Shown: piece after piece, positions 7,846 through 13,920 of the stretch
Layout: every line of letters starts with the position of its first letter
Position numbering within the stretch: position 1 is the first letter of the stretch
Source of the DNA: a phage
NCBI GenBank assembly: GCA_020279385.1
Contig: GCA_020279385.1_4762.2
DNA length: 64,000 nt
Reading direction: 5' to 3' (one strand)
Position numbers and translations under genes: made by a program
The notes under the pieces: model-generated
Databases searched by the model: none
Told to the model about the DNA's origin: nothing
What the model saw: the letters and a program-made list of their open reading frames with translations, nothing else

Positions 7846-7873
7846 TTGACATGCTGATGTTAGGATGTATAAT
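7846..7873 (+). promoter_or_regulatory. sigma70-type early promoter (TTGACA-16-TATAAT) with conserved leader
   Basis: TTGACA 7846-7851, TATAAT 7868-7873, leader acaaacatcgaaacaaaggagga before ATG 7904. Confidence 0.7.
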
Positions 7874-7903
7874 ACAAACATCGAAACAAAGGAGGATAAA
7901 ATT

Positions 7904-9082
7904 ATGTTAGTACGTCAAGCACATGAGATTCGTATAGAAATAAAAGGAAACACGAAAACTCCCTTCTATTGGGAAAATGTTGTAAAAAATTCATGTTTGG
8001 AAGTTGGTTATTCTTTCATGGGGTTTGTTGGAGAATGGTCTGGTCTCAAAACAAAAGCTCTTATATTATGTAATAACAAGCATGAATACACATCAACTCT
8101 AGCAAATATCAGGAAAAAAGTTTCGTGTAAGAAATGTGTGGTTGATTCTCAAAGATTAAACCTAAACCATGTGATAGAAAGAATAAAACAAGAAACAAAC
8201 GATGTATTTGTTGGTTTTGTTGGTGGGGAGTATAAAAATAGCAGAACAAGACTCATTATGAACTGTGCAAACGGACACACATACCAACCAACATATACAG
8301 ATTTCATTCATCAAAAAACAAGATGTCCTTTATGTAACGGTGGCAAGATGTATGATAAAGAAGATTCCTTATCTTATATAAATGAAAATAAAGGAGATTA
8401 TAAATTTTTGGGTATAATTGGGGAATGGAAAGGAACAAAAACTAAACTTAAATTTGAGTGTCCTAATAATCACATTTACGAACAAAGTTATGATAAGTTC
8501 AAACTAGGTCGTCGGTGTCACAAATGTAGCGGAACAGCACCAATAACAAAAAGTGACCGATTAAAACAAATTGAAAAAATATGCGAAACCAACAGACTAA
8601 AATTTATTGGGATTTCAGGAAAGTGGAAAGGTGCATTAACAAGAATACTTCTGACATGCGAACGTAACCATGAATGGGTTGTAACTATTGATAATTTTGT
8701 TAATCGCGGAACACGCTGCCCGTTGTGTTCTAAGCATGGTTATCAGGCATTAAAGACAGGAACTCTTTATATACAGAAATTAACCAACAATGATTCCTTT
8801 GTTGGCGTGAAATTTGGAATAACAAACAAAGAAACACATGAGCGCATGAGAAACCAATCTCGTGTTTCAAAGTTCGATCACGAGATCTTTTATGAATTGA
8901 CTTTACAAGATGGTCAAAAGATCTTAGAATTAGAAAACAAAATCAAGGAAGCGATGAAAGGTAAAACTTCCTATATCTCGAAAGAAGATATGCCGGATGG
9001 CTGGACAGAGACAGTAGCGCCGTCTGAATTGAGCACTATCATGTATATCGTAAAATCTTTTGAAAAAGAGTTGACAGCGTAA
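7904..9082 (+). CDS. protein with four tandem Zn-ribbon repeats and C-terminal GIY-YIG-like (T5orf172-type) domain
   Basis: Four ~50-aa repeats of form F(V/L)G..GEW.G.KTK...C...H.Y.......C..C; C-terminus LYIQKL...FVGVKFGITNKETHERMRN...DGWTE; start set at ATG 7904 (track start 7865 lies inside the promoter). Confidence 0.6.
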   Translation: MLVRQAHEIRIEIKGNTKTPFYWENVVKNSCLEVGYSFMGFVGEWSGLKTKALILCNNKHEYTSTLANIRKKVSCKKCVVDSQRLNLNHVIERIKQETNDVFVGFVGGEYKNSRTRLIMNCANGHTYQPTYTDFIHQKTRCPLCNGGKMYDKEDSLSYINENKGDYKFLGIIGEWKGTKTKLKFECPNNHIYEQSYDKFKLGRRCHKCSGTAPITKSDRLKQIEKICETNRLKFIGISGKWKGALTRILLTCERNHEWVVTIDNFVNRGTRCPLCSKHGYQALKTGTLYIQKLTNNDSFVGVKFGITNKETHERMRNQSRVSKFDHEIFYELTLQDGQKILELENKIKEAMKGKTSYISKEDMPDGWTETVAPSELSTIMYIVKSFEKELTA

Positions 9083-9098
9083 CGCAACAGTGTATAAT
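9071..9098 (+). promoter_or_regulatory. sigma70-type early promoter (TTGACA-16-TATAAT) with same leader as the 7846 promoter
   Basis: TTGACA 9071-9076, TATAAT 9093-9098, leader acaaacatcgaaacaaagagagg; overlaps 3' end of previous CDS. Confidence 0.7.
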
Positions 9099-9129
9099 AC
9101 AAACATCGAAACAAAGAGAGGATTATATT

Positions 9130-9459
9130 ATGTGGACAGTAGAAAAAATCGTAGACGAATCAACCGAAATTGTCTCATGCGGGACTATTGAAGAATGTCT
9201 TAACGCCGCTAACCGCGATTGTATTACGGTTTATGAATCTCGTCGCGGGGATGGCAGCTTAATTCAAAGTGATTATCGTTACACCGCACATAAAATTGTA
9301 TTCCGTTTCTGGGAAAACGGTGTTAATGTTGGTGTCAGCTTACTGAAAATGTGGCGTGATTATTCCGAACGCTATTATGTTTCTCCCGATGATGGTAATG
9401 AATTTAAAACCGAGATCACAGAAGAAAATGTAAACGAAAACTTCTTTAAACTGATTTGA
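9130..9459 (+). CDS. hypothetical protein (109 aa)
   Basis: ATG 9130 after promoter and RBS; no recognisable motif. Confidence 0.5.
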   Translation: MWTVEKIVDESTEIVSCGTIEECLNAANRDCITVYESRRGDGSLIQSDYRYTAHKIVFRFWENGVNVGVSLLKMWRDYSERYYVSPDDGNEFKTEITEENVNENFFKLI

Positions 9460-9473
9460 CAGGAGATTATATT

Positions 9474-10043
9474 ATGATTCAATGTGTATTTGCGATTGGT
9501 AACACTAAAATGTCGGATGAAAATTGGGCTTTTGGTTTTAAAGGTGGCTTACCGTGGGGTCGTCCAATCAAAAAAGATATGGAAAACTTTCAAATCCGCA
9601 CTATTGGTGAGGTTGATTTTTCTGCGGTAGTAATGGGACGCAATACCTTTGAAAGTCTGCCTAAAGCACTTTGGGGACGTTTGAATGTGGTTGTTAGCAC
9701 CGATACCAACAAGCCAGAACCGAAAGCTAAAAACGGCGACCAACCTGATGTGTATACTGGAATTGAATTGAAGGATCTGTTAAAAGCCCTAGAGAAAACG
9801 CAAGGTTTGGTAAGTGTTATCGGCGGACCTTCCCTGATTGAAAAAGCGGTTGACTTTGCGGACCGTATTGTGTTAACGTATGTTCAACGTTCAGGGATCA
9901 ACGATCCATTTGAATATGATGTTGGAATCTCTAAGGAAATGATTCAGGAATTATATTTTGACTTTGCAACAAAAGAAGAACATAGTTACTTCCTTGATGA
10001 TTACCTGATCAGCGAACAAATTTTAGAACGTAAGAAGGCGTAA
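9474..10043 (+). CDS. frd: dihydrofolate reductase
   Basis: GLPWGRPIKKDMENF, VVMGRNTFESLP, VSVIGGPSLIE DHFR motifs; ATG 9474 with RBS AGGAG (track start 9456 is TTG). Confidence 0.9.
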   Translation: MIQCVFAIGNTKMSDENWAFGFKGGLPWGRPIKKDMENFQIRTIGEVDFSAVVMGRNTFESLPKALWGRLNVVVSTDTNKPEPKAKNGDQPDVYTGIELKDLLKALEKTQGLVSVIGGPSLIEKAVDFADRIVLTYVQRSGINDPFEYDVGISKEMIQELYFDFATKEEHSYFLDDYLISEQILERKKA

Positions 10044-10044
10044 C

Positions 10045-10137
10045 ATGAAAATTCTGACAGATTATGAGTGCAAACATTGTGGTGAATCTTTGATGTTTGC
10101 TGGTAGTCGGTGTTTACACTGCGGACGGGAACAATAA
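10045..10137 (+). CDS. possible tiny Zn-ribbon protein (30 aa)
   Basis: MKILTDYECKHCGESLMFAGSRCLHCGREQ; CxxC...CxxC; start overlaps frd stop, stop overlaps next ATG (TAATG). Confidence 0.3.
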   Translation: MKILTDYECKHCGESLMFAGSRCLHCGREQ

Positions 10138-10400
10138 TGAAAATCAGTATTATTCGATTATGGTCGGCAACCCATGAAAACTACGCAGTAGCAGAAGATC
10201 TTTACGGGTTGCAATATCTCTATGATGAATCGAAAGCGTCATGGTTTCCTGTACAAGAAAATAGCGATATATCAAGACCTGTTACTGTATTCGGTCCAGA
10301 CGATATTTTTATTAACATTAGCGAGACAGTAGCAAAACTGCGTAAGAAAGCAAAGAAAAAGGGGAAGTGGGATGAAAGAATATTTGAAACTGTTACGTGA
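10137..10400 (+). CDS. hypothetical protein (87 aa)
   Basis: ATG 10137 coupled to upstream ORF; overlaps td start. Confidence 0.45.
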   Translation: MKISIIRLWSATHENYAVAEDLYGLQYLYDESKASWFPVQENSDISRPVTVFGPDDIFINISETVAKLRKKAKKKGKWDERIFETVT

Positions 10401-11607
10401 TGTTATTGATAATGGCTGGCCTCGTGAAGACCGCACGGGGGTAGGTACGCTCTCTAAATTCGGCGCAGAGATGCGAATTGATTTAAGCAAGGGTTTCCCC
10501 TTACTGACCACTAAAAAGATGGCTACAGCCTCTGTAATTGGCGAATTGCTATGGTTTATGGAGGGATCACTTGACCGCCGTCGCTTACAGGAAATTACAC
10601 GCGGCAAGTTTGACGAGGAAGCCTTTGATATTTGGCGCGGCAACTGTCTTGATATGAAAGAAAAGAATCCCTTGCGATTCAATGGTTATAATGTCGGCAA
10701 TATGTATGGTATGGCGTGGCGACGCAAACCGATTCATCCACACGGTGAAATCAAAATTAAGCGAGTTAAGAGCAAATATGCACATACATTTAAGCACCCG
10801 TGGGTAGAAGACTTTACGCCAACCAATGAAACAGAAGACCGTTTATGTGCTATCTGGCGTGGTATGCGTTATGAAGAGTTTGATTCTGAATATAATCAAT
10901 TCTTAGTAGCCGATCACTGGAAGACTCAATCTAATTTTGTTAATGATGCATATTGCTTGTGGGGATTCCAGGAATGGGTAGATGATGGTTATTTCGGTTA
11001 TCTGCTTGATAGTGATTATCTGGGTGGGGATATTTTAGCACCAGATACCACGATCTTTGCTAGTATGGACGTAGACACATCAAGCACTAAAGACGATGAA
11101 GAATATGTCTATCGCCCGAAGATTTGGGAAGACCAGTTACAAAAAGTTATTGACATGATCAAGAATGATCCGTATAGTCGTCGTATTATCATTGATTCAT
11201 GGAACGTACAGGAAACGCATAATGCTGTGTTAGGTGTATGTCATCCGATGGTACAGTTTTATGTTTCCAACGACAACAAATTGAGTTGTTTATTTTTCAT
11301 GCGTTCGAATGATCTCTTTTTAGGGAATCCGTTCAACGTAGCGAGCTATGCACTGTTAACGCATATCATCGCGAAGATTTGCGGGTTAGAAGTTGGCGAA
11401 CTGGTTTATCAGTGTGGGGATTGCCACATTTACAAAAACCATTTTGATCAAGTTATGGAACAGTTAAGCCGTGTTCCGTTTGATAAACCAACAATTGAGT
11501 TGCCGGAATTTAAGTCTTTAGATGAGGTATTGACAAAGACTCCGAAAGACTTTAAAATTCACAACTATCAAAGCCATCCAGCAATCACCGCTCAAATGGC
11601 AGTATAA
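10372..11607 (+). CDS. td: thymidylate synthase with ~110 aa internal insertion
   Basis: 411 aa; TS motifs RTGVGTL, LLWFMEG, PYSRRIIIDSWNV, CHPMVQFYV, FMRSNDLFLGNPFNVASYALL, GDCHIYKNH; extra segment between GMAWRR and DQLQKVI versus ~8 aa in E. coli ThyA. Confidence 0.9.
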   Translation: MKEYLKLLRDVIDNGWPREDRTGVGTLSKFGAEMRIDLSKGFPLLTTKKMATASVIGELLWFMEGSLDRRRLQEITRGKFDEEAFDIWRGNCLDMKEKNPLRFNGYNVGNMYGMAWRRKPIHPHGEIKIKRVKSKYAHTFKHPWVEDFTPTNETEDRLCAIWRGMRYEEFDSEYNQFLVADHWKTQSNFVNDAYCLWGFQEWVDDGYFGYLLDSDYLGGDILAPDTTIFASMDVDTSSTKDDEEYVYRPKIWEDQLQKVIDMIKNDPYSRRIIIDSWNVQETHNAVLGVCHPMVQFYVSNDNKLSCLFFMRSNDLFLGNPFNVASYALLTHIIAKICGLEVGELVYQCGDCHIYKNHFDQVMEQLSRVPFDKPTIELPEFKSLDEVLTKTPKDFKIHNYQSHPAITAQMAV

Positions 11608-11610
11608 ACA

Positions 11611-11627
11611 AAAGGGGGCGAAAGCCC
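11611..11627. other. GC hairpin (GGGGGCGAAAGCCCCC) between td and nrdA
   Basis: Perfect stem-loop; no plus-strand T tract, so probably an RNA structure rather than a strong terminator. Confidence 0.4.
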
Positions 11628-11676
11628 CCAATATGGAGGATAAACTTGTTCCTGCTAAAATATGAAGTGAGGTAAT

Positions 11677-13920
11677 ATGATTAAAAATGTTGTTAAGTCT
11701 TCCGGTCTGACTGTTCCGTTTGAAAAAGAAAAAGTAATGAAAATTCTGGAAGCGGCAGCCGAAGGTCATAACGTTGATCCATATGAATTGTTTGATATGG
11801 TTGAACCACTTCTGACAGAAGGTATGTCTACCAATGATATCCAGAAAGTATTGATTAAGGTCGCCGCAGATAACATTACTGTAGAAACTCCTGATTATCA
11901 ATATGTAGCAAGTAACCTTGCAATGTTCGCGCTTCGTAAATCAGTATACGGTCAATTCCAACCTATTGATTTTTATAGCCATATTGAGCGTAATATTGCA
12001 ACCGGAAAATATGATCGCGAAATTCTACAAAAGTATTCCCGTGAAGAAGTGGAATATCTGGAGAAATTCATCGACCATAAACTTGATTTTAAAATGACCT
12101 ATGCTGGTGCGATGCAGTTAAAAGAGAAATATCTTGTTCAGGATCGCAGCACTAAGAAAATCATCGAAACACCGCAATTTGCGTATATGCTGATCGGTAT
12201 GTGCTTACATCAAGAAGAGACAGAAAATCGACTTGAACATGTGATTGATTTTTATAATGCTGTTGCGAATAAGCAAATCTCTCTGCCTACTCCGATTATG
12301 GCAGGTGTGCGTACCCCAACACGCCAATTTAGTTCGTGTGTGGTGATTGAAAGTGATGACTCATTGCAGGGTATTAATGAAACCGCAAATGCAATCATTA
12401 AGTATATTAGCAAGCGTGCTGGTATCGGTATCAACGCTGGCATGATTCGCGCGGAAGGATCTAAGATCGGGCATGGTGAAGTTCGTCATACTGGCGTTAT
12501 CCCATTCTGGAAACATTTTCAGACTGCCGTTAAGTCATGCTCACAAGGCGGTATTCGTGGAGGGGCAGCTACTCTCTATTACCCAATGTGGCATTTAGAG
12601 TTTGAAAGTCTGATTGTGTTAAAGAACAATAAGGGGGTGGAAGATAACCGCATTCGTCATCTTGATTACGGCGTACAGATTAATAACCTGATGGTAGAGC
12701 GATTCCTTAAACGGGATTACATTACTCTGTTTAGTCCAGATGTTGCAGGTGGCTTGTTGTGGGATCTGTACTTCCGAGATGAGGAAGGTTTCCGCCAGCT
12801 TTACGAAAAACTGGAAAAAGATCCGAGTGTTCGTAAAACTCGTGTTAAAGCCGAAGACCTGTTTTTAGCGGTGGCAATTGAACGTTTTAACACTGGTCGA
12901 ATCTACCCAACATTCACAGACAACATGAACAATCACGGGGCGTTTATTCGTAATGTAGCACCAATTAAACAATCTAACCTGTGTTGTGAAATTGCTCTGC
13001 CTACTAAACCGATGGGGCGTGATGATTCAGAGATCAGCCTATGTACTTTGGCAGCATATGTTTTAGGTAATTTCGATATCGAAAACATGGAAGAAGTAGA
13101 ACGCATTGCTATGGTTATGGTGCGTGCACTTGACAACCTGTTAGATTATCAGGATTATCCTGTAGAACAAGCTCTGACAGCCAAAAAACGTCGCTCTCTG
13201 GGTGTTGGTGTTACTAACTTTGCGTCATATCTAGCGGATAATTTCTTCACATATGAAGACGCTAACGAGTTTACGCATAAAACGTTTGAACGCTTGCAAT
13301 ATGCTCTGATTAAGGCTAGTGTGCAACTGGCTAAAGAGAAGGGTGCTTGCGAACTGATGCACGAAACACGTTATGGACGCGGTGAACTGCCTATCGACTG
13401 GTACAAAAAGACAGTAGATGAACTGGTTGATCCTGTGTATGAGATGGATTGGGAAGAACTGCGCGAAGACCTGAAAAAATATGGCATTCGTAATAGTACG
13501 CTTTCGGCTCTGATGCCTTGTGAGTCGTCTTCTCAGGTATCTAACAGCACAAACGGTATTGAACCGCCTCGCGGGATTGTATCGGTTAAAGGATCGAAAG
13601 AAGGGCAATTTAATCAGGTTATTCCGAACGTAGAGAATAATGCTGATGTTATTGACCTGCTTTGGACACTGATCAAGAAAGGTAACAAGCCCTATCTGAC
13701 ACTGGCAGCGATCATGCAGAAGTTTGTAGATCAGGCGATTAGTTCCAATACATCCTATGATCCAAGCACTTATAAGACTGGTAAAGTCGATATTGCTGAT
13801 GTGTTAGATGATATGTTGTTCGCTCAACATTACGGTCTGAAAACCCTGTATTATGCGAACGTTCGCGACGGTGCAGATGGTACGGAAGACGCTAGCGAGT
13901 GCTCATCTTGCAAGCTGTAA
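11677..13920 (+). CDS. nrdA: ribonucleotide reductase large subunit
   Basis: 747 aa; class Ia RNR alpha features (active-site NLCCEI, C-terminal redox Cys pair ECSSCKL). Confidence 0.95.
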   Translation: MIKNVVKSSGLTVPFEKEKVMKILEAAAEGHNVDPYELFDMVEPLLTEGMSTNDIQKVLIKVAADNITVETPDYQYVASNLAMFALRKSVYGQFQPIDFYSHIERNIATGKYDREILQKYSREEVEYLEKFIDHKLDFKMTYAGAMQLKEKYLVQDRSTKKIIETPQFAYMLIGMCLHQEETENRLEHVIDFYNAVANKQISLPTPIMAGVRTPTRQFSSCVVIESDDSLQGINETANAIIKYISKRAGIGINAGMIRAEGSKIGHGEVRHTGVIPFWKHFQTAVKSCSQGGIRGGAATLYYPMWHLEFESLIVLKNNKGVEDNRIRHLDYGVQINNLMVERFLKRDYITLFSPDVAGGLLWDLYFRDEEGFRQLYEKLEKDPSVRKTRVKAEDLFLAVAIERFNTGRIYPTFTDNMNNHGAFIRNVAPIKQSNLCCEIALPTKPMGRDDSEISLCTLAAYVLGNFDIENMEEVERIAMVMVRALDNLLDYQDYPVEQALTAKKRRSLGVGVTNFASYLADNFFTYEDANEFTHKTFERLQYALIKASVQLAKEKGACELMHETRYGRGELPIDWYKKTVDELVDPVYEMDWEELREDLKKYGIRNSTLSALMPCESSSQVSNSTNGIEPPRGIVSVKGSKEGQFNQVIPNVENNADVIDLLWTLIKKGNKPYLTLAAIMQKFVDQAISSNTSYDPSTYKTGKVDIADVLDDMLFAQHYGLKTLYYANVRDGADGTEDASECSSCKL

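What the first reader, a model, noticed from the sequence alone, without database searches (positions are those of the whole stretch)
10372..11607. Thymidylate synthase with a ~110-residue internal insertion and no intron
TS motifs are colinear with ThyA, but between GMAWRR and DQLQKVI there are ~115 residues where E. coli ThyA has ~8. The ORF is uninterrupted, so unlike T4 td no group I intron is evident. The insert lacks intein boundary residues and could be a regulatory or interaction domain.
Basis: seen in the sequence. Interest (0 to 1): 0.5.

Follow-up and report, generated by a model that had tools for sequence, protein, structure and literature searches.

The report
Thymidylate synthase carrying a homing-endonuclease relic
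This RB49-like phage makes an apparently intact thymidylate synthase with a 135-residue folded domain in a surface hairpin, and that domain looks like the trimmed remnant of a selfish homing-endonuclease-like gene that entered the enzyme in frame, with no intron or intein.

Summary
ORF 10372-11607 (+), 411 aa, is a full-length ThyA-type thymidylate synthase (TS) of a Krischvirus (RB49/JSE-like coliphage). It has 135 residues (aa 119-253, nt 10726-11130) between GMAWRR and DQLQKVI, where my recalled E. coli ThyA has 9.

It is not an intron: Rfam finds nothing, the ORF is continuous, and dN/dS is 0.22. It is not an intein: there are no splice-junction residues and no Hint-domain hit.

The insert is homologous to a very large phage family labelled 'HNH endonuclease' in PHROGs. 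This family includes the IPA-HNH homing endonuclease gp59 of phage ICP1. In other phages the same TS hairpin holds a complete 245-285 aa copy, colinear with a free-standing phage ORF. That copy is present in some Asteriusvirus genomes and absent from others, with divergent flanking tracts.

Krischvirus keeps only the central core. The N-terminal domain, the RCY segment, the conserved Asn and the C-terminal helix-turn-helix (HTH) are gone, and LDKD has become LDSD.

AlphaFold2 models the insert confidently as a compact domain on a two-stranded stalk.

Best reading: a working TS carrying an unspliced, probably nuclease-dead relic, kept by structural entrenchment or an unknown new role. I found no paper describing this.

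The parts
10372..11607 (+). td gene: 411-aa ThyA-type thymidylate synthase including the insert (stop codon 11605-11607)
   Evidence: ORF list. Pfam PF00303 over 1-266/266, E 9.8e-84. phrog_160 thymidylate synthase, E 1.2e-99. Annotated td in RB49, JSE and Phi1.
10372..10725 (+). N-terminal TS segment (aa 1-118), ending in GMAWRR
   Evidence: aa 3-88 align to solved TS structures. R21, E58, W88 and W116-R117 are invariant in the family alignments. dN/dS 0.04 among 9 Krischvirus genes.
10726..11130 (+). The 135-residue insert (aa 119-253): relic of an IPA-HNH-type homing-endonuclease-like module
   Evidence: Alone it has no Pfam or PDB sequence hit and only phrog_2081 'HNH endonuclease' at E 0.1. 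tblastn hits long-insert TS of phiKp_21 (4e-12), UE-S1 (2e-12) and Vibrio phage D69 (1e-5). It aligns colinearly with the central part of the 245-283 aa inserts and with free-standing gp03 of Vibrio phage BT-1011. The family profile matches ICP1 gp59 with hhalign probability 98.7%. dN/dS 0.22.
10723..10761 (+). Ascending strand of the predicted beta-hairpin stalk (aa 118-130, RKPIHPHGEIKIK)
   Evidence: AlphaFold2 full-length model, strand E118-130, pLDDT about 90 or higher. Same strand in the insert-only model.
10828..11064 (+). Globular core of the insert (aa 153-231): helices 153-170, 181-193 and 199-204, and strands 210-213 and 228-231. It holds W162, W183, F189, D192, L212 and F229, which are conserved across the whole family, and LDSD (213-215 = DSD) in place of the family's LDKD
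   Evidence: AF2 models. Invariant and nearly invariant columns. Group consensus comparison. Foldseek against viral models hits insert-bearing phage TS and phage proteins named homing endonucleases.
10885..10896 (+). SEYN (aa 172-175): a 4-codon in-frame indel that varies among Krischvirus alleles. It lies in the least confident loop, where full-length modules carry the RCYNP...Y segment
   Evidence: Krischvirus protein alignment. pLDDT 72 for residues 171-180. Family alignment.
11104..11133 (+). Descending strand of the stalk (aa 245-254, YVYRPKIWED), returning to the TS core at DQ
   Evidence: AF2 strand E245-254. R248 is nearly invariant, and the V.RP.I motif is conserved in short and long forms.
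11131..11604 (+). C-terminal TS segment (aa 254-411) with the catalytic Cys290-His291 and R270/R271, R311, S312, D314, N322, H352, Y354
   Evidence: aa 254-411 align to solved TS chains, with E 1e-45 or better for that stretch. These residues are invariant or nearly so.
11127..11426 (+). Mosaic tract immediately 3' of the insert: 57-88% nucleotide identity to RB49 inside a gene that is otherwise 97-100% identical. It corresponds to the 3' divergent tract of the Asteriusvirus insert cassette
   Evidence: Sliding identity, window against RB49. Two allele classes with dS about 0.9. UE-S1 against 121Q.

Best explanation
The gene encodes a functional thymidylate synthase with a foreign domain in the tip of a surface beta-hairpin, between WR (116-117) and DQ (254-255). 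The domain is translated with the enzyme and is not spliced out.

The domain descends from a homing-endonuclease-like module. That family is labelled 'HNH endonuclease' in PHROGs (phrog_2081) and includes ICP1 gp59, an IPA-HNH homing endonuclease gene of Barth et al. 2023. The module entered td in frame at this hairpin.

In many other phages the module at this site is complete. It has an N-terminal beta domain, a central core with the motifs W..M..RCY, V..RW..F.NF..D, LDKD, YS..TC.F and a conserved Asn, and a C-terminal NUMOD-like helix-turn-helix. There it behaves like a mobile cassette.

In the Krischvirus lineage, deletions removed the N-terminal domain, the RCY segment, the conserved Asn and the helix-turn-helix. 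LDKD became LDSD. What remains is the hydrophobic core of the central domain on a two-stranded stalk.

Shown: the insertion, its homology, the reduction series, the presence/absence variation elsewhere, and purifying selection on the insert.

Inferred: (a) the relic no longer cuts DNA; (b) it persists mainly because TS folding now depends on a well-behaved domain at that hairpin, so only rare, precise in-frame deletions could remove it; (c) TS activity is retained. A secondary role, such as nucleic-acid or partner binding, is possible but has no evidence.
For: TS identity and intact catalytic residues.

Insert size and single-site location.

The insert is coding and not spliced: continuous ORF; no Rfam family; dN/dS 0.22 against 0.04 and 0.13 for the TS segments among 9 Krischvirus genes; confident fold, pLDDT 93 and pTM 0.91 for the full-length model and pLDDT 93 for the insert alone.

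Homology to the endonuclease-like family:
- Long TS inserts hit phrog_2081 at E 1e-24 to 1e-50.
- tblastn with a long insert finds 1436 phage records, with annotations that include free-standing 'HNH endonuclease' and 'AP2 domain' ORFs.
- BT-1011 gp03 (224 aa, between tail genes) hits phrog_2081 at E 5e-62 and is colinear with the whole long insert.
- The insert-family profile matches ICP1 gp59 with hhalign probability 98.7%, E 1.6e-16. gp59 is named an IPA-HNH HEG in PMC10448857.
- The window's short insert alone hits long-insert TS by tblastn at 2e-12 to 1e-5.
- Its model matches insert-bearing TS and phage homing-endonuclease-named proteins in BFVD.

Same site in many TS: 84 of the top 150 representatives found with the insert profile are TS carrying the module at TS-profile positions ~120-132.

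Mobility elsewhere: in Asteriusvirus, UE-S1, KP13-7 and ph0011 carry an insert. 121Q, PBECO4, SP27 and others have a match consistent with an insert-less TS, which I confirmed as a 309-aa protein at the same locus only for 121Q. Flanks are 91-100% identical, but the insert and about 70 nt on its 5' side and about 280 nt on its 3' side are divergent.

Reduction series and motif decay.

Independent reduction at least twice, and inserts in two TS backbones.

The short form also occurs in another T4-like contig with frd-td-nrdA-nrdB synteny at about 52-54% identity, which suggests it is long retained.
Against: No experiment shows that the 411-aa protein is made unspliced, is active, or lacks nuclease activity.

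The window insert alone reaches phrog_2081 only at E 0.1, so its link to the family rests on intermediates.

A dN/dS of 0.22 and retention across about 50% protein divergence fit a selected function as well as they fit entrenchment.

All 59 Krischvirus records carry the insert, so no mobility is visible in this lineage.

The dN/dS estimates use Nei-Gojobori on a recombining gene. The trees are rough neighbour-joining trees.
Confidence: 0.7

Rival explanations
1. Exapted functional domain. Whatever its origin, the insert now serves the phage. It might dock TS to partners of the T4-type dNTP-synthesising complex or replisome, or bind DNA or RNA to localise or autoregulate TS.
For: Purifying selection on the insert, dN/dS 0.22. 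The same core is retained in a second T4-like lineage at about 52-54% identity and after an independent reduction in P0007/P0013. The fold is compact and confidently predicted, and a pTM of 0.91 suggests a fixed orientation relative to the core. The ancestral family is DNA-binding by architecture, with NUMOD-like or AP2 partner domains.
Against: No partner, ligand or regulatory element was identified. The family's polar motifs (RCY, LDKD, Asn) decay in the short forms while mainly hydrophobic core residues persist, which is what fold maintenance alone would give. The insert evolves 2-5 times faster than the TS segments. Insert-less TS work well in related phages.
Confidence: 0.22
2. Still-active selfish element. 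The Krischvirus insert is a minimal nuclease or nickase that still promotes gene conversion of td in mixed infections.
Against: Every recognisable DNA-binding appendage has been lost, as have the RCY segment and the conserved Asn, and LDKD is altered. There is no insert-less Krischvirus td to home into. The tract may simply reflect recombination between conserved td stretches.
Confidence: 0.05
3. A removable intervening sequence: an in-frame group I intron or an intein, so that the mature enzyme has normal length.
For: T4 td famously has a group I intron, and inteins occur in phage nucleotide-metabolism genes (literature).
Against: No Rfam intron in 9000-13000. dN/dS is well below 1, and indels are in multiples of three codons. 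The junctions are R118|K119 and E253|D254, with no Cys/Ser/Thr nucleophile, no His-Asn, and Asp at +1. There is no Hint or intein Pfam hit. The predicted fold is a helical domain on a beta stalk continuous with the TS sheet.
Confidence: 0.02
4. An ordinary lineage-specific loop expansion of TS, like the 50-residue small-domain insert of L. casei TS or the eukaryotic inserts, with no foreign origin.
For: This hairpin is a known variable site: human TS carries a short extra segment here (my knowledge, not tested). L. casei TS shows that TS tolerates large surface insertions (one search shows its extra ~50 residues unaligned).
Against: The insert shares significant sequence and structure similarity with thousands of non-TS phage proteins. 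Full-length versions equal an entire free-standing ORF. Presence/absence variation comes with divergent flanks.
Confidence: 0.01

Closest known systems
IPA-HNH homing endonuclease genes (ICP1 gp59, gp115-116, gp209; Barth, Dunham & Seed 2023, PMC10448857). In PHROGs: phrog_2081, 953, 374 and 3377, all labelled 'HNH endonuclease'
   Same: The core domain is homologous: the insert-family profile matches gp59 with hhalign probability 98.7%, and long inserts hit phrog_2081 at down to 1e-50. Full-length TS inserts share the architecture and motifs of free-standing members. Like them, they sit in or next to essential nucleotide-metabolism genes.
   Different: Here the module is not a separate gene. 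It is nested in frame inside the TS polypeptide. The window copy lacks the N-terminal domain, the RCY segment, the conserved Asn and any AP2 or NUMOD DNA-binding domain. Nuclease activity of the family was not tested here, and the passages I read in that paper infer it by HHsearch.
T4 td group I intron with I-TevI, and inteins in phage nucleotide-metabolism genes
   Same: A selfish endonuclease element occupies a conserved, essential nucleotide-metabolism gene. In Asteriusvirus the element comes with divergent flanking tracts that resemble exon co-conversion.
   Different: No ribozyme and no protein-splicing domain or junction residues. The element stays in the mature protein. The position differs from the T4 td intron, which lies further 3' in the gene (my knowledge, not tested).
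ThyA with surface insertions (L. casei TS 50-residue small-domain insert; eukaryotic TS inserts; T4 TS)
   Same: Same enzyme fold and catalytic residues. Extra residues are tolerated at the surface.
   Different: The insert is much larger (135 residues, and up to about 283 in relatives), forms an autonomous folded domain, and is of foreign origin. It lies after the WR motif, whereas the L. casei insert lies before the GPVYG..WR motif (the L. casei position is my knowledge).
In-frame fusion of LAGLIDADG homing endonuclease genes with mitochondrial rps3 in Ophiostoma-type fungi (recalled from the literature, not checked here)
   Same: A precedent for a homing endonuclease ORF carried in frame within a host coding sequence without its own splicing element.
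   Different: Different nuclease family, host gene and kingdom. There the fusion is terminal or within a tolerant region of a ribosomal protein gene that is itself inside an intron.

Membership tests
ThyA-type thymidylate synthase (Pfam PF00303) | Full-length match to the family profile above the curated cut-off | tested here: met
   281 bits against a cut-off of 24.3; profile 1-266/266.
ThyA-type thymidylate synthase (Pfam PF00303) | Catalytic Cys-His, dUMP-phosphate arginines, RS.D motif, Asn that specifies dUMP, and His/Tyr of GD.H.Y | tested here: met
   C290-H291, R21, R270-R271, R311-S312-D314, N322, H352 and Y354 are present. All are invariant or nearly so, and they align to solved TS. 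The E. coli Q165 equivalent is Met310 in this allele and Gln in the RB49 allele.
ThyA-type thymidylate synthase (Pfam PF00303) | dUMP to dTMP activity | not testable with these tools
   Needs complementation of a thyA mutant or an enzyme assay.
Intein | Cys/Ser/Thr (or Ala) as first residue, His-Asn at the end, and Cys/Ser/Thr as the +1 extein residue | tested here: not met
   The junctions are R118|K119-P-I-H and W252-E253|D254. The family alignment shows no conserved nucleophile, and Asp is invariant at +1.
Intein | Hint (protein-splicing) domain | tested here: not met
   No Pfam hit other than TS. The AF2 model shows three helices and a beta pair on a hairpin stalk.
Group I intron (as in T4 td) | Ribozyme secondary structure, usually with interruption of the reading frame | tested here: not met
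   No Rfam match at E up to 1 other than a chance 5.8S hit. The ORF is continuous. dN/dS is 0.22 and indels are in whole codons.
IPA-HNH / phrog_2081 homing-endonuclease-like family | Sequence and structure homology of the core domain | tested here: met
   Family profile including the window insert against ICP1 gp59: probability 98.7%, E 1.6e-16. Window insert alone: tblastn 2e-12 to 1e-5 against long-insert TS, phrog_2081 at E 0.1 only, and Foldseek BFVD hits with probability about 1.0.
IPA-HNH / phrog_2081 homing-endonuclease-like family | Conserved motifs W..M..RCY, LDKD, YS..TC.F and the downstream Asn | tested here: not met
   The window has W..M but no RCY segment, LDSD instead of LDKD, APDTTIF instead of YS..TC.F, and no Asn. 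The free-standing and long-insert groups keep all of these.
IPA-HNH / phrog_2081 homing-endonuclease-like family | Attached DNA-binding domain (AP2 or NUMOD-like helix-turn-helix) | tested here: not met
   None in the window insert. PF22083 NUMOD-like is present in the long insert of P0040, and AP2 is present in a free-standing Vibrio phage member.
IPA-HNH / phrog_2081 homing-endonuclease-like family | Sporadic presence among close relatives, with converted flanks | tested here: not met
   All 59 Krischvirus records carry the insert. The feature is met for the long form in Asteriusvirus.
IPA-HNH / phrog_2081 homing-endonuclease-like family | Site-specific DNA cleavage and homing | not testable with these tools
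   Needs cleavage assays and mixed infections.
Canonical HNH (beta-beta-alpha-metal) nuclease | HNH motif recognisable by profile, with the catalytic His and the metal-binding Asn/His on the helix | tested here: inconclusive

The most novel reading that the evidence does not exclude
Homing-endonuclease-like genes may have another way of living in essential genes: spliceless, in-frame nesting in a permissive surface hairpin of the host enzyme. Under this reading the host protein carries the element as a domain. Long forms would be bifunctional TS-endonuclease chimeras that home into insert-less td. The Krischvirus domain would be a relic that has since been recruited for a new job, such as tethering TS to DNA or to the dNTP-synthesis and replication machinery.
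Probability: 0.25. Interest if true: 0.75.

Novelty: new variant of a known kind. Interest (0 to 1): 0.55.

Why it matters
Homing endonuclease genes are thought to survive in essential genes by hiding in self-splicing introns or inteins, or by sitting between genes. Here an endonuclease-like module is simply translated as part of thymidylate synthase.

At least 84 protein clusters (50% identity) carry it at the same hairpin, so it is not a one-off. The series runs from complete copies to trimmed cores, which makes it a natural record of how a selfish insert decays and becomes a fixed protein domain.

There are practical consequences:
- Some of these genes are mis-annotated, as 'HNH endonuclease' or 'hypothetical protein'.
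- The site is a proven permissive position for domain insertion in TS.
- The mosaic tracts next to the insert bear on how nucleotide-metabolism genes are exchanged between phages, including therapeutic coliphages.

Tried and rejected
- Word-indexed protein search with the insert alone found nothing. This is a limit of the index, because the full-length query worked.
- The insert alone gave no hits against Pfam, NCBIfam or PDB sequences.
- A profile of the inserts against PDB sequences gave only chance hits at E above 1.
- Foldseek against PDB gave nothing. The afdb50 library was not available.
- hhalign against I-HmuI gave no core similarity. I therefore do not call the insert an HNH domain, only a member of the family that others label HNH.
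- Pfam on ten larger non-TS relatives found no nuclease domain.
- The IMG/VR scan returned only six loci, four of them insert-less TS at 48-50% identity, so GenBank genomes were used for the selection analysis.
- Literature searches found no description of this insertion: RB49/td/insertion, TS with homing endonuclease and in-frame, TS/HNH/fused, the T4 mobile-element review, the jumbo-phage survey, and the actinophage intein survey. The RB49 genome paper is not held.
- Rejected: intron, intein, assembly artefact and simple loop expansion. Reasons are given under the rival explanations.
Full report
**1. What is there**

ORF 10372-11607 (+) is an uninterrupted 411-codon gene. It lies between a DHFR-like ORF (9456-10043; frd in the RB49 record) and nrdA (11677-13920), the frd-td-nrdA order of T4-type phages.

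The DNA is 99.5% identical to Escherichia phage vB_EcoM_Skers, 97-98% to KFS-EC, GEC-3S and JSE, and about 92% to RB49. All 59 megablast hits cover at least 80% of the gene. The window is therefore a Krischvirus (RB49-like) genome, and the long td is the normal state of the genus.

The protein matches Pfam Thymidylat_synt end to end (profile 1-266/266, E 9.8e-84). Against solved TS structures it aligns as two blocks, aa 3-88 and aa 254-411. GMAWRR is aa 113-118 and DQLQKVI is aa 254-260, so 135 residues (119-253, nt 10726-11130) lie between them. My recalled E. coli ThyA sequence has 9 there.

The catalytic residues are all present and are invariant or nearly so in the family alignments: C290-H291, R21, R270/271, R311, S312, D314, N322, H352 and Y354. 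An active dUMP-methylating enzyme is therefore the expectation. This is inferred and was not tested.

**2. Not an intron and not an intein**

- Rfam finds no RNA family in 9000-13000 apart from a chance 5.8S hit at E 0.17.
- Among nine Krischvirus td genes, dN/dS for the insert is 0.22, against 0.04 for the N-terminal and 0.13 for the C-terminal TS segment. Length differences are whole codons, such as the 4-codon SEYN indel. The insert is therefore read as protein.
- The junction residues are R118|K119 and E253|D254, with Asp invariant at +1. These are not intein junctions, and no Hint domain is detected.

**3. Predicted structure**

With an alignment of insert-bearing TS, AlphaFold2 gives mean pLDDT 93.4 and pTM 0.91.

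- Residues 118-130 and 245-254 form a long two-stranded stalk.
- The stalk carries a compact domain: helices 153-170, 181-193 and 199-204, and strands 210-213 and 228-231.
- The only soft spot is residues 171-180 (pLDDT 72), which is where the SEYN indel lies.
- An insert-only model is equally confident (pLDDT 93.3).

**4. Where the insert comes from**

The insert alone has no Pfam, NCBIfam or PDB sequence match. Its only family hit is phrog_2081 'HNH endonuclease' at E 0.1.

A full-length search found a graded series of TS proteins with an insert at the same place:

| Protein length | Insert length |
|---|---|
| 401-418 aa | 127-145 aa |
| 454-478 aa | 176-200 aa |
| 517-554 aa | 245-283 aa |

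The long inserts hit phrog_2081 at E 1e-24 to 1e-50 over profile positions ~14-250. They also hit phrog_953, 374 and 3377, all labelled HNH endonuclease. One long insert ends in an I-HmuI NUMOD-like helix-turn-helix (PF22083).

tblastn with a long insert finds 1436 phage records. Their annotations include free-standing ORFs named HNH endonuclease, AP2-domain protein or DNA-binding protein.

One of these is gp03 of Vibrio phage vB_VpP_BT-1011 (224 aa), which lies between tail-fibre and tail-chaperone genes. It hits phrog_2081 at E 5e-62 and is colinear with the entire long insert.

The profile of all inserts, the window's included, matches ICP1 gp59 with hhalign probability 98.7% and E 1.6e-16. 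Barth, Dunham and Seed (PMC10448857) named gp59 an 'IPA-HNH' homing endonuclease gene. They noted that the domain is too divergent for the Pfam HNH models and was recognised only by HHsearch.

The window's own short insert links directly to long-insert TS by tblastn: UE-S1 at 2e-12, phiKp_21 at 4e-12 and Vibrio phage D69 at 1e-5. Its model matches an insert-bearing phage TS and phage proteins named homing endonucleases in BFVD, with Foldseek probability about 1.

**5. How common it is**

The insert profile, searched against 1.84 billion representative proteins, gives 31,276 hits at E up to 1e-3 and 6,010 at E up to 1e-10.

Of the best 150 hits, 84 are TS with the module at the same TS-profile position (~120-132). 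The other 66 are non-TS proteins of 175-724 aa, many of free-standing size.

Rough NJ trees place insert-bearing TS in two different TS backbones, one of which also contains insert-less TS. They also suggest that short inserts arose at least twice:
- once in the clade of Krischvirus plus P0003-P0006;
- once in P0007/P0013, which nest among long forms.

P0006 sits in a 169-kb contig with frd-td-nrdA-nrdB synteny. It is about 52-54% identical to the window protein. This suggests that the short form is older than the genus.

**6. Evidence for mobility of the complete form**

In the jumbo-phage genus Asteriusvirus, UE-S1 and KP13-7 (517 aa) and ph0011 (546 aa, a different insert variant) carry an insert. 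121Q, PBECO4, SP27, phAPEC6 and others give a match consistent with an insert-less TS. I confirmed this as a 309-aa protein at the same locus only for 121Q.

UE-S1 and 121Q compare as follows:
- 91-100% nucleotide identity in the neighbouring DNA, in the first ~285 nt of td, and from the GDCH codons to the end;
- only 46-76% identity in between.

The unit that differs is therefore the insert plus about 70 nt of 5' and about 280 nt of 3' TS coding sequence. This is what homing with co-conversion, or cassette exchange by recombination, would leave.

In the window, the only part of td that diverges from RB49 is 11127-11426 (57-88% identity, against 97-100% elsewhere). This tract starts at the 3' junction of the insert and ends at the same GDCH codons.

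**7. What has been lost in Krischvirus**

Group consensus sequences show that the 38 free-standing members, the 31 larger non-TS members and the 88 long-insert TS all keep these motifs: GvGy.G, y..W..M..RCY, V..rW..F.nF..D, y.LDKD, YS..TC.f and a downstream Asn.

The ten short-insert TS differ:
- they lack the N-terminal domain, the RCY segment, the Asn and the C-terminal helix-turn-helix;
- LDKD is relaxed (LDSD in the window);
- they retain the mostly hydrophobic positions W162, W183, F189, D192, LWGFQEWVD, L212 and F229.

This is the pattern expected if the fold is being maintained and the original activity has been lost.

**8. Is the family really HNH?**

This is not settled here. No Pfam HNH model hits any member sampled. 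hhalign against I-HmuI (sequence verified as 1u3e) finds no core similarity. Foldseek against PDB finds nothing.

I therefore describe the module as 'homing-endonuclease-like, labelled HNH by PHROGs and by Barth et al.'. I treat nuclease activity as untested.

**9. Most likely mechanism**

Shown: TS with an in-frame, unspliced, well-folded insert of foreign origin, at a site used by many phage TS, under purifying selection.

Inferred:
- The complete module is or was a homing element that spreads between td alleles and is tolerated because this surface hairpin accepts a whole domain.
- In the T4-like lineage leading to Krischvirus it was cut down to a nuclease-dead core.
- That core persists mainly because only a precise in-frame excision would restore a viable hairpin, so selection keeps it well folded.

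A recruited function, such as nucleic-acid or partner binding, is the main rival. I cannot separate it from entrenchment with sequence data.

**10. Novelty**

The gene is annotated as td in dozens of GenBank genomes, and the free-standing family has been described. I found no paper describing an IPA-HNH-type module nested in frame in thymidylate synthase, or its reduced relic in RB49-like phages. The library searched is incomplete; for example, the RB49 genome paper is not held.

I rate it a new variant of a known kind and of moderate interest.

Noticed in passing
window 11127-11426: A sharp 300-nt mosaic tract inside td. It is 57-88% identical to RB49, while the rest of td and nrdA is 97-100% identical. 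Two allele classes exist in the genus (window/JSE/KFS-EC against RB49/Phi1/G2248/SSG23), with dS about 0.9. The tract covers the catalytic Cys and the RS.D motif, and in this allele Met replaces the conserved Gln before Arg311.
   Followed up: partly
window 7865-9082 (+): A 405-aa ORF with four CapR-homology / treble-clef zinc-finger repeats (PF21817, E 2.7e-29) that hits phrog_681 'endonuclease' at E 3e-100. Most of the gene is only 23-60% identical to the corresponding RB49 region. It is probably a variable free-standing homing-endonuclease-like gene of the CapR/T5orf172 type, two genes upstream of frd.
   Followed up: partly
L001:1138-2571 (Vibrio phage D69 VPHD69_0093); phiKp_21 and ph0011 td; Whisky, Brandy and Cognac td: Annotation errors caused by the insert. 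A 477-aa TS with the module is annotated 'HNH endonuclease', and several insert-bearing td genes are annotated 'hypothetical protein'.
   Followed up: yes
window 10885-10896: A four-codon indel (SEYN present or absent) varies among Krischvirus td genes. It lies in the lowest-confidence loop of the insert, where complete modules carry the RCYNP..Y segment. This suggests reduction is still in progress.
   Followed up: partly
window 10110-10400 (+): A conserved small ORF (phrog_16012, unknown function; RB49ORF236c) overlaps the td start codon by 29 nt. This region (10113-10406) is also less similar to RB49 (78-88%) than its surroundings.
   Followed up: no
L019:1501-3141 (Escherichia phage ph0011): A third Asteriusvirus td state: a 546-aa TS whose insert is only about 49% identical overall to that of UE-S1. 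Different variants of the module therefore occupy the same site within one genus.
   Followed up: partly
proteins P0138, P0140, P0170, P0174, P0184, P0192, P0203, P0207, P0239, P0243: Some insert-bearing TS show a second gap of about 20-55 residues in the TS profile match near profile position ~180. They may carry an additional insertion downstream of the catalytic Cys region.
   Followed up: no
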